From the UHGV virus genome UHGV-1364441: 64,000 nt of DNA; one strand, given 5' to 3'. Source of the stretch: a virus. Under the pieces are notes generated by a model that saw only the letters and a list, made by a program, of their open reading frames with translations, made no database searches and was not told where the DNA came from. Shown piece by piece: positions 2,895 to 55,154 of this stretch; the stretch's first letter is position 1; each line of letters begins with the position of its first letter. The position numbers and the translations under genes are program-made.

Positions 2895-3000
2895 ACTTAA
2901 AAATTCTTGAATCAAAGGTGTACCAATGTAGCACCGATTTGGTGCACCTTTACATCCTTTTTGGTGCCAATTGTGTACCATATAGCACTGGTTTACTTAT
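2895..3000. repeat. Second iteron-like array downstream of the ParA/RHH operon (parC2-like)
   Basis: GGTGTACC, TGTAGCACC, TGGTGCACC, TGGTGCCA, TGTGTACCA, AGTGCTATA words of the same family as 1735-1935. Confidence 0.4.
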
Positions 3001-3140
3001 GAGCAGAAGTGGGCTTGATGAAAAAGCTCATTATTGAAATAACGATAGAAAGCAATTTCTAATCAACTAGTGGTTGTCAGCCTATTCGGCTTATAAGATC
3101 ATACGCTGTTATACGTTTTTTACGCTTTGAGGAATCCACA

Positions 3141-4802
3141 ATGAGTGAGGCAGAAGCCCGCCCGACTAACTTTATTCGTCAGATCATCGATGAAGATCTG
3201 GCAAGTGGTAAGCACACCACAGTACATACCCGTTTCCCGCCGGAACCGAATGGCTATCTGCATATTGGTCATGCGAAATCTATCTGCCTGAACTTCGGGA
3301 TCGCCCAGGACTATAAAGGCCAGTGCAACCTGCGTTTCGACGACACTAACCCGGTAAAAGAAGATATCGAGTACGTCGAGTCGATTAAAAACGACGTTGA
3401 ATGGTTAGGTTTTCACTGGTCTGGTAACGTCCGTTACTCCTCCGATTATTTTGATCAGCTCCACGCCTATGCTGTTGAACTGATCAACAAAGGCCTGGCG
3501 TATGTTGACGAACTGACGCCGGAACAGATCCGCGAATACCGCGGCACCCTGACGCAGCCGGGTAAAAACAGCCCGTACCGCGATCGCAGCGTTGAAGAGA
3601 ACCTGGCGCTGTTCGAAAAAATGCGTGCCGGTGGTTTTGAAGAAGGTAAAGCCTGCCTGCGTGCGAAAATCGACATGGCGTCGCCGTTTATCGTGATGCG
3701 CGATCCGGTGCTGTACCGCATTAAGTTTGCTGAACACCACCAGACTGGCAACAAGTGGTGCATCTACCCGATGTACGACTTCACCCACTGCATCAGCGAT
3801 GCGCTGGAAGGTATTACGCACTCTCTGTGTACGCTTGAGTTCCAGGACAACCGTCGCCTGTACGACTGGGTGCTGGACAACATCACCATTCCTGTTCACC
3901 CGCGCCAGTACGAATTCTCGCGCCTGAATCTGGAATACACTGTGATGTCCAAGCGTAAGCTGAACCTGCTGGTGACCGACAAGCACGTTGAAGGCTGGGA
4001 TGACCCGCGTATGCCGACCATTTCCGGTCTGCGTCGTCGTGGTTACACTGCGGCTTCTATTCGTGAGTTCTGCAAACGCATCGGCGTGACCAAGCAGGAC
4101 AACACCATTGAGATGGCGTCGCTGGAATCCTGCATCCGTGAAGATCTCAACGAAAATGCGCCGCGCGCAATGGCGGTTATCGATCCGGTGAAACTGGTCA
4201 TCGAAAACTATCAGGGAGAAGGCGAAATGGTCACCATGCCGAACCATCCAAACAAACCGGAAATGGGTAGCCGTCAGGTGCCGTTTAGCGGTGAGATTTG
4301 GATCGACCGCGCCGATTTCCGAGAAGAAGCTAACAAGCAGTACAAACGTCTGGTGCTGGGTAAAGAAGTGCGTCTGCGTAATGCTTACGTCATTAAGGCT
4401 GAACGCGTGGAGAAAGATGCCGAAGGCAATATCACCACCATCTTCTGTACTTATGACGCCGACACCTTAAGCAAAGATCCGGCAGATGGTCGTAAAGTGA
4501 AAGGCGTTATTCACTGGGTGAGCGCGGCACATGCGCTGCCGGTTGAAATCCGCCTGTACGATCGTCTGTTCAGCGTGCCGAACCCAGGTGCTGCTGATGA
4601 TTTCCTGTCGGTGATTAACCCGGAATCGCTGGTGATCAAACAGGGTTTTGCTGAACCGTCGCTGAAAGAAGCGGTAGCGGGTAAAGCATTCCAGTTTGAG
4701 CGTGAAGGTTATTTCTGCCTCGACAGCCGCCATTCTACGGCGGAAAAACCGGTATTTAACCGCACCGTTGGGCTGCGTGATACCTGGGCGAAGTTAGGTT
4801 AA
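3141..4802 (+). CDS. glnS: Glutaminyl-tRNA synthetase (class I aaRS), full length 553 aa
   Basis: HIGH motif (HIGHAKS), KMSKS-type motif (VMSKR), and end-to-end resemblance to enterobacterial GlnRS as I recall it. Confidence 0.95.
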
Positions 4803-27248: not shown

Positions 27249-27521
27249 TTGTATATGTTGCATAGAGTTTTATGGAAAAGCGTTATTGTCGGCGCGATCT
27301 TGGCTATGTCTGGGTGTGCTATGGTGCAATACAATGACGGAGAAAAGGTTAGCATCCAGTCAGATGGTTGGTATGGCCTGGATAGCCTGCAAAAAACAGC
27401 GGATAAAGCCTGCCAGCAATACGGAAAGTCTAAAGCCGTATATCAGCATAGTGCTAACGCTAATCCTCATCTTGCGCCCGGAACAGGCGTTCAGAATACC
27501 ATCTGGAAATGTGAGCCTTAA
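27249..27521 (+). CDS. Small lipoprotein
   Basis: Signal peptide with lipobox-like LAMSGC. Confidence 0.5.
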
Positions 27522-27523
27522 AT

Positions 27524-27775
27524 ATGAGCGACTGGAATATTGCAGCTAAAAGTCAGGAAGAACGGGATAAGGTTAACGTTGATCTGGCTGCCAGCGGTGT
27601 GGCGTACAAAGAGCGATTGAACATACCTGTCATAGCTGAACAGGTAGCCCGCGAGCAACCAGAGAATCTGCGCACCTATTTCATGGAACGGCTACGGCAC
27701 TACCGGCAGTTAAGCCTCCAGTTGCCAAAAGGGAGCGATCCGGTGTATCAGAACGAGGATGCACCAAAAAAATAA
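27524..27775 (+). CDS. Hypothetical protein (83 aa)
   Basis: ORF directly after the lipoprotein gene. Confidence 0.4.
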
Positions 27776-27860
27776 CGGCAAGATGGGGGAGAAATGTGAT
27801 TAGCCCCCAGCGTGGCGCGCCTACAAACCCAGCTTTCACAAACTATGCCTTTTCAATGTA

Positions 27861-27880
27861 TACTGTATGAATAAACAGTA
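27861..27880. promoter_or_regulatory. LexA (SOS) box TACTGTATGAATAAACAGTA
   Basis: Perfect CTGT-N8-ACAG palindrome about 20 bp upstream of the HumD-like start. Confidence 0.7.
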
Positions 27881-27898
27881 TCATTAAGGTAAAACGCT

Positions 27899-28288
27899 AT
27901 GGGCTTCCCTTCTCCTGCGGCGGATTATGCAGAGAGCCGCATTTCTCTTGATCAGCAACTAATCAGACATCCTTCCGCGACCTACTTCATGCGGGCGGCA
28001 GACAGCCATCACCGTGAGGGAATATTGCAAGGTGCTTTGCTGGTGGTTGATTCCTCACTTACTCCGGTTGATGGTTCACTGCTTATATGCGCTATGGAGG
28101 GTGAATATCGCATAAAGAGATACAGGAAATATCCGCGCCAGCACCTGGAGGATTTAAGCACCGGGAAGAAAGAGGCGTTACCAGTAGATGACGATGGATG
28201 CACGGGCAGTAATGCTGTTTTTGGTGTGATCACTTATGTCATTAATGATGCCAGAAGTGGGGAGTTTGATTATAGACCTGTGATTTAA
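27899..28288 (+). CDS. humD: UmuD'-like protein (P1 HumD type, S24 LexA/UmuD fold)
   Basis: FPSPAADY ... SATYF ... LLVVDS ... EYRIKR pattern parallel to UmuD without the N-terminal cleaved tail. Confidence 0.7.
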   Translation: MGFPSPAADYAESRISLDQQLIRHPSATYFMRAADSHHREGILQGALLVVDSSLTPVDGSLLICAMEGEYRIKRYRKYPRQHLEDLSTGKKEALPVDDDGCTGSNAVFGVITYVINDARSGEFDYRPVI

Positions 28289-28333
28289 GGCGCATAAAGA
28301 AGCCCGCCAGACCAGGCGGGCTTTTTGTTGATA

Positions 28334-29428
28334 TCATTCAATGATTTTTTCGGCTGTCAGCCAGCTAATTTCATGCCTGTCTTTCGGCGGTTTTAGCATG
28401 TGAGCATATTCAGCGACATGCTCCCACGGAATTGTTTTTGCCCACTCAACGATAGCATTGTGATCTGCAGTGAAGAGTGGAATAGTGTGCGATTTCAACC
28501 ATTCTAATGTCGTGACGCCATGTTTTTTGGCGTGGTGCTGCGCATGATGCCGGGCTATCACTCGTAATGGCATTGTCCATTCACTACCATCAGGCATCGA
28601 AAAGCGCATTGTCTTCGGCATATCTGATTCAAGAACAGCCTCCCTAATACCAGGGAACTCACCAAGAATCATACGACGATAGTCATCACTATTTCGCCCG
28701 CCATACCTTTCGGCAAAATGATCAAGATATTCTTGGGTAATAAATGGTGAATCCTCCGCACTCAGCTTAATGGCTTTATATACACCACTCGTATTATCTT
28801 CAGCTAAAGCACGTCCATGATGTGAATCATAAAAAAAGCCTATTTCCTCTGGTGACGGAATTGAAGTGAGCAATATGCGTGAATCACCACTAGTCATGCT
28901 TGCCCACACAATGCTGTATGCCCGATCGCTGATATGTGCGGAATCCACAATAATGAATAAAAGATGGTCGGCGTAGTGACCTGCAATGCTATCTTCATAG
29001 TTAAGGCGGTAGTTACAAAAGCACATTCCCCAAAATTCATTGAACATCAGACCGCTATCACCGACCTTAAAATACTCAATGATAAAAGGTTGTTTTTTCA
29101 GCAATGCCTCCCAACATTGCCACACATATGCAACAATTCCTCTTTTGCAAGCATTTGATTTTGGATAAACAATTACTGTCCGGGAATCAGGATACATAAT
29201 CGTATAAAGGGTACTAATAACAGCAAGCACTTGCGGTCGTCCGATCCCATACGGAGTGGTGACAGTAGCTTTTGCATTATTGGGCTGTATAGCTTCAACA
29301 ATTTGTTGTTGCTGGTGGCTTAAATCAATATCAAACAATTCTTTTGCTGCCAGTACCCAATTGTCTTTATATTTCTCCACCAGCGACAGCCAGCGCGGAT
29401 CTTTATAAATATTGCTCTTAGTCGCCAT
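28334..29428 (-). CDS. Terminase-large-subunit paralog with degenerate ATPase motifs
   Basis: Resembles the PacB-like protein at 34728-36236 (shared FYDSHH block), but Walker A is TTPYGIGRPQV (no GKS/T) and Walker B is IIVDSAH. Confidence 0.55.
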   Translation of the reverse strand: MATKSNIYKDPRWLSLVEKYKDNWVLAAKELFDIDLSHQQQQIVEAIQPNNAKATVTTPYGIGRPQVLAVISTLYTIMYPDSRTVIVYPKSNACKRGIVAYVWQCWEALLKKQPFIIEYFKVGDSGLMFNEFWGMCFCNYRLNYEDSIAGHYADHLLFIIVDSAHISDRAYSIVWASMTSGDSRILLTSIPSPEEIGFFYDSHHGRALAEDNTSGVYKAIKLSAEDSPFITQEYLDHFAERYGGRNSDDYRRMILGEFPGIREAVLESDMPKTMRFSMPDGSEWTMPLRVIARHHAQHHAKKHGVTTLEWLKSHTIPLFTADHNAIVEWAKTIPWEHVAEYAHMLKPPKDRHEISWLTAEKIIE

Positions 29429-54191: not shown

Positions 54192-55154
54192 TCATCCCCT
54201 AAAGCCAGCCGGGATTGACCAATCCTCACGGTCAAATTCAGACCGATAGCCACGCTGTTTCATCAGGTCAAAGGCTTCACCAATGGTTGCACACCCCTGG
54301 GAGCCAGAATAATCCATTGAGAAATCCAGGGCACTGGATTGTTTAGGCTTATTCACTGCGGTAGCGGCACTACGTATCCATGCAAATTTTTTTGCCAGCT
54401 TTTCAGCGGTACGATACAGAGCCTGCCGTTTTGTGTGCCCCTCGTCTGAACGACGCTTTGCAGCTCTCGCTTTTGCCGCCGCCAGGCAGTGGTTGGTCTG
54501 TTCTTCCCTGATTACTGTTTTTTTATCCAGTACCCCGTTATCCGTTTGAGAACTATCTGCTGGTGAAGCCTTTGGCTGAACCGCGCATGATCTTTCTCTT
54601 CTTTTGGCTATAGAGTGACTCTTATTTTCTATTGGCTGTTCATTTTGAACATGGGGGGACTTGTTCAATTTGAACAGGGGGTTCCCAGTTTCAAAAAAAT
54701 AACGAACCTTTGAAATCAACTGCTTAACCAGTTTTGTGGCGTTGGCAAATTTGATGCCCTGCTTACCCCCTATCTCCATTGCTACATGAATGAAGTGGAG
54801 AAATTGTGTCGTAAACCGATATACGTTACACACCTGGGCATTGTTATTCGCTACCTGATGTTGCTTAACAAGCATTCCGCACTTCGTCGCTTCAGCAAAT
54901 GCCCGGCGTACAGTAGAAATACTGCGTCCTGTAATCTCGGACATATCAGCATATGAGCGACGGATCATGTATTCATCGGTAGACCCTGCCAGGTTGGCGA
55001 ACTCGGCAATAATGGCGCTATGTGAAGGGGAAAGAAGACCGCTATGACGAGCAAAAAAACTCAACTGATGACCTTTGATTTTTTTGTGGTATTCAGTGTT
55101 GTTTTTATACTCAGAAGTGTTGAAAGTTACTGAAACTGAATTTAAAATATTCAT
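54192..55154 (-). CDS. Hypothetical DNA-binding protein, possibly replication-associated
   Basis: N-terminal HTH-like segment ITGRSISTVRRAFAEATKCGMLV; 320 aa. Confidence 0.45.
   Translation of the reverse strand: MNILNSVSVTFNTSEYKNNTEYHKKIKGHQLSFFARHSGLLSPSHSAIIAEFANLAGSTDEYMIRRSYADMSEITGRSISTVRRAFAEATKCGMLVKQHQVANNNAQVCNVYRFTTQFLHFIHVAMEIGGKQGIKFANATKLVKQLISKVRYFFETGNPLFKLNKSPHVQNEQPIENKSHSIAKRRERSCAVQPKASPADSSQTDNGVLDKKTVIREEQTNHCLAAAKARAAKRRSDEGHTKRQALYRTAEKLAKKFAWIRSAATAVNKPKQSSALDFSMDYSGSQGCATIGEAFDLMKQRGYRSEFDREDWSIPAGFRG

What the first reader, a model, noticed from the sequence alone, without database searches (positions are those of the whole stretch)
27861..28288. Perfect SOS box upstream of the UmuD'-like gene
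TACTGTATGAATAAACAGTA fits CTGT-N8-ACAG and sits about 20 bp upstream of the HumD-like start, over the likely -10 region. The product lacks the N-terminal segment that UmuD loses on activation, so it would be constitutively in the UmuD' form but expressed only during SOS.
Basis: partly seen in the sequence, partly recalled or inferred. Interest (0 to 1): 0.4.

Follow-up and report, generated by a model that had tools for sequence, protein, structure and literature searches.

The report
LexA-controlled humD gene, P1-like phage-plasmid

Summary
TACTGTATGAATAAACAGTA lies at 27861-27880, 18 nt upstream of a 129-aa ORF (27899-28288). It matches the 20-nt E. coli LexA consensus at 17/20 positions (0 of 100 shuffles reach this) and overlaps a good sigma-70 promoter (TTCACA-18-TATACT, 27835-27864). 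The product is 95% identical to phage P1 HumD and passes the NCBIfam HumD equivalog model (210 bits, cutoff 120). Its Gly2 aligns with Gly25 of UmuD, the first residue of UmuD'. An in-frame TAA 9 nt upstream excludes a longer N-terminus. The box is present at the same distance in 85/85 P1-like loci and in 22/39 divergent enterobacterial HumD loci (shuffles: 0.012). The window is a D6-like phage-plasmid with no umuC gene. All this repeats published knowledge: the P1 and P7 GenBank records annotate this LexA site, and the literature describes HumD as an already-activated UmuD. Only two things differ here. The divergent lxr gene of P1 is absent, so the operator serves humD alone. phd-doc is replaced downstream by a terminator and a convergent gene. 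"Expressed only during SOS" is unproven, because no terminator separates humD from the upstream hot operon. Verdict: already known, low interest.

The parts
27835..27840 (+). predicted -35 hexamer TTCACA of the humD promoter
   Evidence: Consensus scan, 10/12 match with an 18-nt spacer. The same hexamer is found in about 35 related loci of the hot-adjacent context. Predicted only, not mapped.
27859..27864 (+). predicted -10 hexamer TATACT, overlapping the left arm of the LexA box by 4 nt
   Evidence: A TATACT/AATACT hexamer at offset -2 from the box start recurs in nearly all HumD-family loci that have a box.
27861..27880 (.). LexA operator (SOS box) TACTGTATGAATAAACAGTA
   Evidence: 17/20 to the E. 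coli consensus, reached by 0/100 shuffles. Present 18-19 nt from the ATG in 85/85 P1-like loci, with invariant CTGT/ACAG arms. Homologous position annotated as protein_bind LexA in P1 and P7.
27885..27890 (+). ribosome-binding site TAAGGT (AAGG 9 nt before the ATG)
   Evidence: Read from the sequence. Conserved as T(A/G)AGGT in P1, P7 and 813R1.
27890..27892 (+). in-frame TAA stop, 2 codons upstream of the start, which excludes any N-terminal extension
   Evidence: Read from the sequence.
27899..28288 (+). humD coding sequence (129 aa plus stop): a UmuD'-like protein of the HumD family
   Evidence: NCBIfam NF051876 HumD equivalog, 210 bits against a cutoff of 120, profile 1-129/129. Pfam Peptidase_S24. 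95% identical to P1 HumD. Matches UmuD' structures 1umu and 1i4v, E about 1e-22.
28297..28329 (.). bidirectional intrinsic terminator: GC stem GCCCGCC/GGCGGGC, A-tract before and U-tract after
   Evidence: Fold energy -23.8 kcal/mol, z -4.9, reached by 0/200 shuffles. The terminator scan also found it on the minus strand. It lies between humD and the convergent gene 28334-29428.
27524..27775 (+). context: hot (Pol III theta homologue), the co-directional upstream neighbour, with no terminator before humD
   Evidence: Pfam DNA_pol3_theta, E 4.6e-34. No terminator-like site in the spacer. The spacer folds no better than shuffles, z 0.58.

Best explanation
This is the humD cassette of a D6/P1-type phage-plasmid: a single-gene transcription unit made of promoter, LexA operator, RBS, humD and terminator. 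In undamaged cells a host LexA dimer on 27861-27880 covers the -10 hexamer and the predicted start site and blocks RNA polymerase. DNA damage activates RecA*, LexA cleaves itself, and the promoter fires. The protein is made directly in the UmuD' form: Met followed by the residue that corresponds to UmuD Gly25. It therefore skips the slow RecA-mediated cleavage that normally delays Pol V assembly. A HumD dimer then pairs with the host's UmuC, since the element carries no umuC, to give a Pol V-like translesion polymerase that raises damage tolerance and mutagenesis. Shown here: the sequence anatomy, family membership, conservation of the operator, and absence of umuC. Taken from the literature: P1 HumD complements UmuD' and binds UmuC and RecA filaments (McLenigan 1999, cited, which I could not read). 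Inferred: LexA occupancy, the start site, and SOS-only expression.
For: Operator quality and rarity. Promoter overlap. The homologous site is annotated as a LexA binding site in P1 AF234172 and P7 AF503408. The operator is at the same distance in 85/85 P1-like loci, across upstream contexts that differ (hot-adjacent, lxr-adjacent and others), with variation confined to positions outside the CTGT/ACAG arms. It is found in 22/39 divergent HumD loci (52-89% protein identity; Kluyvera, Citrobacter, Klebsiella, Enterobacter, Scandinavium, Erwinia, Franconibacter) against 0.012 in shuffles. HumD equivalog model passed. 95% identity to P1 HumD. Gly2 aligns to UmuD Gly25. In-frame stop upstream. No umuC in the window: tblastn best E 0.7, and no IMS domain in any scanned ORF of at least 280 aa. 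[quoted passage not shown]
Against: I found no direct LexA-binding, start-site or lexA-dependent expression data for humD in the papers available. The P1 record places its predicted PhumD about 440 bp upstream of the box, inside lxr, not at the box. The promoter assignment is therefore not settled even for P1. No terminator separates humD from the upstream hot operon, so some LexA-independent transcription is possible. 17 of 39 divergent HumD loci have no box within 120 nt. About 26 kb of the roughly 90-kb element lies outside the window, so a umuC there is not formally excluded. None is known in P1 or D6.
Confidence: 0.85

Rival explanations
1. humD is not strictly SOS-gated. It is also transcribed by read-through from the long co-directional operon that ends in hot. 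The LexA site then adds an SOS boost, or acts as a roadblock, rather than being the sole switch.
For: hot ends 123 nt before humD on the same strand, and there is no terminator-like site in the spacer. In this lineage hot directly follows upstream genes with no gap: the ORF 27249-27521 ends 2 nt before the hot start at 27524. Ronayne 2016 grouped humD with genes not controlled by C1 that still showed measurable induction on lytic induction. The numbers are in a figure I could not see.
Against: The box and a good promoter are strictly conserved right at the gene, which argues that the local promoter matters. A bound LexA dimer can also impede elongating polymerase. From my own recollection of the McLenigan 1999 abstract, which I could not read here, HumD is poorly expressed in vivo.
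Confidence: 0.3
2. HumD's main role is not translesion synthesis with host UmuC. Instead it modulates the host SOS response or replisome for the phage's benefit. It might titrate UmuD or UmuC, act on RecA filaments, or bind Pol III subunits together with the adjacent theta homologue Hot.
For: humD is an orphan without umuC in every enterobacterial HumD-family locus examined. It sits next to hot in many P1-like elements. It is dispensable for P1 lytic growth (PMC10695390). The role of umu-like genes on mobile elements is called unclear in PMC11541004. That UmuD and UmuD' interact with Pol III subunits is established knowledge; the title of reference 82 of PMC4713147 says so.
Against: P1 HumD, 95% identical, is reported to restore mutagenesis and to bind UmuC and RecA filaments (McLenigan 1999, as its title is cited). 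Nothing in the sequence points to a new activity.
Confidence: 0.12
3. The box is a relic of the divergent lxr promoter region of P1-type genomes and has no function here, or it is a chance palindrome.
For: In P1 the site is annotated as shared by lxr and humD, and lxr is missing in this window. The bare CTGT-N8-ACAG motif is expected 0.71 times per window.
Against: The 20-mer is far beyond chance. It keeps the same distance to humD in lineages with and without lxr, and in distant chromosomal HumD genes. Sequence upstream of the promoter is unrelated between contexts, while the box, RBS and start are conserved.
Confidence: 0.03

Closest known systems
Phage P1 humD with its LexA site (GenBank AF234172; also P7 AF503408)
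   Same: The protein is 129 aa and 95% identical. The operator sits at the homologous position and differs at 2 central bases: P1 TACTGTATAAATGAACAGTA, 19 nt from the ATG; window TACTGTATGAATAAACAGTA, 18 nt. The RBS and start are the same, and neither element has a cognate umuC.
   Different: P1 has the divergent lxr gene upstream, so the site lies in a shared divergent control region. P1 also has phd-doc downstream. Here hot lies directly upstream on the same strand and lxr is absent. Downstream, phd-doc is replaced by a bidirectional terminator and a convergent 364-aa hypothetical gene. The -35 here is closer to consensus (TTCACA against TGCACC). The C-terminal residues are DYRPVI instead of DDCPVI.
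Phage D6 and D6-like E. coli phage-plasmids (MF356679; pEHP91H1-2, NZ_CP149812)
   Same: This is the backbone of the window: 97-98% DNA identity over large stretches. pEHP91H1-2 has the identical layout of hot, 123-nt spacer, humD, convergent gene and 99% HumD identity.
   Different: In D6 itself hot is truncated and fused to the humD promoter region, and an extra ORF plus phd-doc follow humD.
E. coli umuDC operon (Pol V) and its SOS box
   Same: The operator is LexA-type and overlaps the promoter. The S24-fold protein matches UmuD' structures at E about 1e-22 and is 44% identical to UmuD. The counterparts of Ser60 and Lys97 (Ser36, Lys73) are present.
   Different: There is no 24-residue N-terminal arm and no Cys-Gly cleavage site, so no RecA-mediated activation step. 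No umuC is co-transcribed. There is a 10-residue C-terminal extension (SGEFD..PV.), a one-residue deletion in the GDSM motif, and a different 80-105 region.
Plasmid and ICE UmuD homologues: MucA, RumA, ImpA, SamA
   Same: They are mobile-element-borne, SOS-linked UmuD-family proteins (established knowledge; PMC7092418).
   Different: Those are full-length, need cleavage, and sit in operons with their own UmuC-type polymerase. HumD is pre-truncated and an orphan.

Membership tests
HumD family (NCBIfam NF051876, equivalog) | Full-length match above the curated cutoff | tested here: met
   210.1 bits against a cutoff of 120, residues 1-129 on profile 1-129/129.
HumD family (NCBIfam NF051876, equivalog) | Translation starts at Met-Gly, with the Gly equivalent to UmuD Gly25 (no N-terminal arm) | tested here: met
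   Gly2 aligns to Gly25 of 8gmt_B and to residue 1 of 1umu_A. MGFPSPA is invariant in 14 family members. In-frame TAA at 27890-27892.
HumD family (NCBIfam NF051876, equivalog) | Orphan gene: no cognate umuC next to it | tested here: met
   tblastn of UmuC against the window gives a best E of 0.7. None of the enterobacterial HumD loci has umuC within 1.5 kb. No IMS domain in the scanned ORFs of at least 280 aa. The roughly 26 kb of the element outside the window was not seen.
HumD family (NCBIfam NF051876, equivalog) | Functionally replaces UmuD' (mutagenesis with host UmuC; binds UmuC and RecA*) | not testable with these tools
   Inferred from 95% identity to P1 HumD, for which this is reported by McLenigan 1999 (title cited). 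The paper itself is not held.
E. coli-type LexA operator (SOS box) | CTGT-N8-ACAG core within the 20-nt palindromic consensus TACTGTATATATATACAGTA | tested here: met
   Core perfect. 17/20 to the consensus, reached by 0/100 shuffles.
E. coli-type LexA operator (SOS box) | Placed so that bound LexA occludes the promoter core or start site | tested here: met
   The predicted -10 hexamer at 27859-27864 overlaps the box, with the -35 at 27835-27840. The same geometry appears across the family. This is a prediction only: no start site has been mapped.
E. coli-type LexA operator (SOS box) | Evolutionary conservation with the regulated gene | tested here: met
   85/85 P1-like loci. 22/39 divergent loci against 0.012 in shuffles. 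The proximal box lies 15-21 nt from the ATG throughout.
E. coli-type LexA operator (SOS box) | LexA binding and lexA-dependent, damage-inducible expression | not testable with these tools
   No direct experiment was found in the papers held. Annotated as a LexA site in P1 and P7.
Self-cleaving S24 proteins (UmuD/LexA type) | S24 catalytic core with the Ser-Lys dyad | tested here: inconclusive
   Pfam PF00717, E 1.2e-8. Ser36 and Lys73 align with UmuD Ser60 and Lys97. The Ser position is Ser or Thr across the family, and Lys is invariant. Activity cannot be judged from sequence.
Self-cleaving S24 proteins (UmuD/LexA type) | N-terminal arm carrying an Ala/Cys-Gly cleavage site | tested here: not met
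   The arm is absent and the ORF cannot extend upstream. The protein is therefore UmuD'-like, not a UmuD-type proprotein.

The most novel reading that the evidence does not exclude
hot and humD, adjacent here with no terminator between them, could form a two-gene 'replisome-retuning' module. Hot (theta homologue) and HumD (UmuD' homologue) would act together on host Pol III and Pol V during SOS to favour replication of the phage-plasmid. The LexA site would serve both as operator and as a roadblock that keeps humD silent despite upstream transcription. Widespread orphan HumD genes in enterobacterial chromosomes, some with tandem LexA boxes, would then point to a general function beyond classical mutagenesis and independent of an adjacent umuC.
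Probability: 0.08. Interest if true: 0.4.

Novelty: already known. Interest (0 to 1): 0.1.

Why it matters
It matters little beyond correct annotation. The locus shows that D6-type phage-plasmids keep the P1 humD cassette with its LexA operator intact, even though the flanking genes (lxr, phd-doc) have been swapped. That supports selection on SOS-gated expression of a pre-activated UmuD'. The cassette is present in about 13% of complete E. coli genomes (685/5426), almost always on plasmids. Any contribution of HumD to damage-induced mutagenesis, for example under fluoroquinolone exposure, would therefore be widespread. That idea is already in the literature and is not new here.

Tried and rejected
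1. I could not retrieve the primary papers: McLenigan 1999, Lobocka 2004 and Chikova & Schaaper 2007. Their content is used only through titles, citing papers, GenBank notes, or my own recollection, which is marked as such. One search failed on a term that was too short.

2. The Ref paper (PMC4713147) has humD qPCR primers, but it used humD only as a gene not controlled by C1 during thermal induction. It is not an SOS or LexA test.

3. I considered computing the Lewis heterology index but did not have the published matrix. I used mismatch counts, shuffles and comparative conservation instead.

4. The bare CTGT-N8-ACAG count is not significant by itself, so it is rejected as sufficient evidence.

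5. The chance or relic explanation is rejected on conservation.

6. The idea that the short ORF is a mis-called, truncated umuD is rejected. There is an in-frame stop upstream, the promoter and operator occupy the upstream DNA, and MGFPSPA starts are family-wide.

7. Four distant loci with umuC downstream (L119-L121, L130) share only 37-42% identity with the query. For L119 and L120 the frame stays open upstream and reads like a UmuD arm, so they look like ordinary full-length umuD-umuC operons that happened to match the search pattern. I did not check this for L121 (only 3 open codons upstream) or L130. I do not count any of the four as HumD.

8. For minus-strand ORFs I trimmed the wrong end: the stop was included and the first codon dropped. 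This has no effect on the domain results, but it made the crude mismatch count at the end meaningless, so I ignored it.

9. No structure prediction was run because close solved homologues exist.

Full report
**Observation.** The sequence TACTGTATGAATAAACAGTA lies at 27861-27880. It is the only CTGT-N8-ACAG in the window. That minimal motif alone is not remarkable: 0.71 are expected, and 54 of 100 shuffles contain one. The full 20-mer is remarkable. It differs from the E. coli LexA consensus TACTGTATATATATACAGTA at only 3 central positions. No shuffle of 100 and no Markov simulation of 300 produced a site that good. The box ends 18 nt before the ATG (27899) of a 129-codon ORF that runs to 28288. 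A sigma-70-like promoter, TTCACA-18 nt-TATACT (10 of 12), spans 27835-27864, so its -10 hexamer shares 4 bases with the left arm of the box. An AAGG ribosome-binding site sits 9 nt before the ATG. An in-frame TAA at 27890-27892 makes any longer N-terminus impossible. Directly after the stop codon there is a strong hairpin with flanking A and U tracts (-23.8 kcal/mol, z -4.9). It serves as a bidirectional terminator between humD and a convergent gene. The unit is therefore a compact one-gene cassette.

**Identity of the gene.** The protein hits Pfam Peptidase_S24 and the NCBIfam equivalog model 'HumD family translesion DNA polymerase' over its full length, at 210 bits against a cutoff of 120. 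It is 95% identical to HumD of phage P1 and P7, 93% to D6, and 99% to that of plasmid pEHP91H1-2. Against solved structures the best matches are E. coli UmuD' (1umu, 1i4v; E about 1e-22). In the alignment to full-length UmuD (8gmt_B), Gly2 of the query pairs with Gly25, the first residue left after RecA-mediated cleavage. A family alignment shows MGFPSPA as an invariant start. The Lys that corresponds to UmuD Lys97 (Lys73) is invariant. The position of the catalytic Ser60 (Ser36 here) is Ser or Thr. A 10-residue C-terminal extension is absent from UmuD.

**Genome context.** The window is a P1-like phage-plasmid of the D6 type. The humD region matches P1, P7, RCS47, SJ46 and D6 at 91-95%. The flanks match D6 and about 90-kb E. 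coli plasmids at 97-98%. In P1 the order is hot, lxr (divergent), LexA site, humD, phd-doc. Here lxr is missing: hot (27524-27775, Pfam DNA_pol3_theta) is followed after 123 nt by humD. Downstream, phd-doc is missing. The same layout is seen in pEHP91H1-2. There is no umuC-like gene in the window: six-frame tblastn gives a best E of 0.7, and the scanned ORFs of at least 280 aa have no IMS domain.

**Is the operator under selection?** I checked 80 IMG/VR loci plus P1, P7, D6, 813R1 and pEHP91H1-2. All 85 have a CTGT-N8-ACAG box 18 or 19 nt before the ATG. There are 11 sequence variants, and all differences lie outside the CTGT/ACAG arms. The DNA further upstream falls into several unrelated contexts. 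I then examined 39 more distant HumD-type loci from representative bacterial genomes (35-89% protein identity). Of these, 22 have a strong box within 120 nt, all among loci of 52-89% identity, against a mean of 0.012 in shuffled controls. In every one of the 22, a box lies 15-21 nt from the ATG. A Citrobacter/Kluyvera/Klebsiella sub-lineage has a second box 4 nt further upstream. A TATACT/AATACT hexamer overlapping the box by 4 nt recurs throughout. This is a clear phylogenetic footprint of a LexA-controlled promoter that travels with the gene.

**Mechanism.** The best-supported reading is the textbook one. LexA bound to the box occludes the -10 region and start site. SOS induction removes LexA. 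HumD is then made directly in the UmuD' form, skipping the cleavage step, and works with host UmuC. The anatomy, family membership and conservation are shown here. [quoted passage not shown] LexA occupancy, the start site and damage-inducibility are inferred. I found no direct test in the papers held. Two points temper 'only during SOS'. First, no terminator separates humD from the co-directional hot operon. Second, the P1 record places its predicted PhumD about 440 bp further upstream rather than at the box.

**Comparison and novelty.** The site is annotated in P1 as 'LexA binding site in the regulatory region of lxr and humD' and in P7 as 'regulation of humD expression'. The hot-lxr-humD segment is already described as a variable region of P1-like phage-plasmids (PMC9603915). 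humD is non-essential for P1 lytic growth (PMC10695390). The cassette occurs in 685 of 5426 complete E. coli genomes, with 700 of 717 places on plasmids. The finding is therefore correct but already known. The local differences are the missing lxr and phd-doc, a -35 closer to consensus, two central base changes in the box, and DYRPVI at the C-terminus. These are ordinary lineage variation.

**Side observations.** A second LexA-like site, TACTGTTTTTTTATCCAGTA, lies at 54513-54532 and is also beyond chance. It sits inside the coding sequence of the D6-type lytic replication gene. In 21 homologues its arms alternate between CTGT/ACAG and CTGG/CCAG forms, and its meaning is unresolved. A near-chromosomal copy of glnS at 3141-4802 is a known D6 feature.

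Noticed in passing
window 54513-54532: Second LexA-like site, TACTGTTTTTTTATCCAGTA: 4 mismatches to the consensus and, from memory, one base different from the uvrB operator. It lies inside the coding sequence of the D6-type lytic replication gene (54192-55154, minus strand), not at a promoter. 0 of 300 simulations give any site this good. In 21 homologous genes the arms alternate between CTGT/ACAG and CTGG/CCAG, and both forms keep the palindrome. It could link SOS to lytic replication or be coding-constrained coincidence.
   Followed up: partly
window 3141-4802 (+): Full-length glutaminyl-tRNA synthetase gene on the phage-plasmid, about 97% identical to chromosomal E. coli glnS. It is annotated in phage D6 and is found on 81 plasmid places among complete E. 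coli genomes. This is a known D6-lineage feature, and its role is unclear.
   Followed up: partly
window 27524-29428: Relative to P1, the divergent lxr gene between hot and humD is absent. Downstream of humD, phd-doc is replaced by a bidirectional terminator and a convergent hypothetical gene of 364 aa in the RefSeq annotation of pEHP91H1-2, with no Pfam hit.
   Followed up: partly
L004 (phage D6 MF356679) 2938-3084: In D6 itself hot is truncated. The annotated 48-aa 'theta-like' CDS D6_107 begins with the hot N-terminus and then reads through the humD promoter and LexA box region. A deletion appears to have fused hot to the humD control region.
   Followed up: no
L087, L089, L091, L093, L094, L105, L106, L115 (Kluyvera, Citrobacter, Klebsiella, Pseudocitrobacter loci): Chromosomal HumD-family genes with two tandem LexA boxes separated by 4 nt. 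The proximal box is 18-21 nt from the ATG, as in the window, and the distal box is at 42-45 nt. 17 of the 39 divergent loci have no box within 120 nt.
   Followed up: partly
HumD residue 36 (window 28004-28006) and family alignments A2/A3: The residue aligned with the UmuD catalytic Ser60 is Ser or Thr across the HumD family, whereas the Lys97 equivalent (Lys73) is invariant. This HumD also ends DYRPVI instead of the usual DDCPV(M/I).
   Followed up: no
window 27249-27521 (+): A 90-aa ORF immediately upstream of hot. Its N-terminus looks like a lipoprotein signal peptide with the lipobox LAMSGC. It has no Pfam hit, and this is my reading from the sequence only.
   Followed up: no
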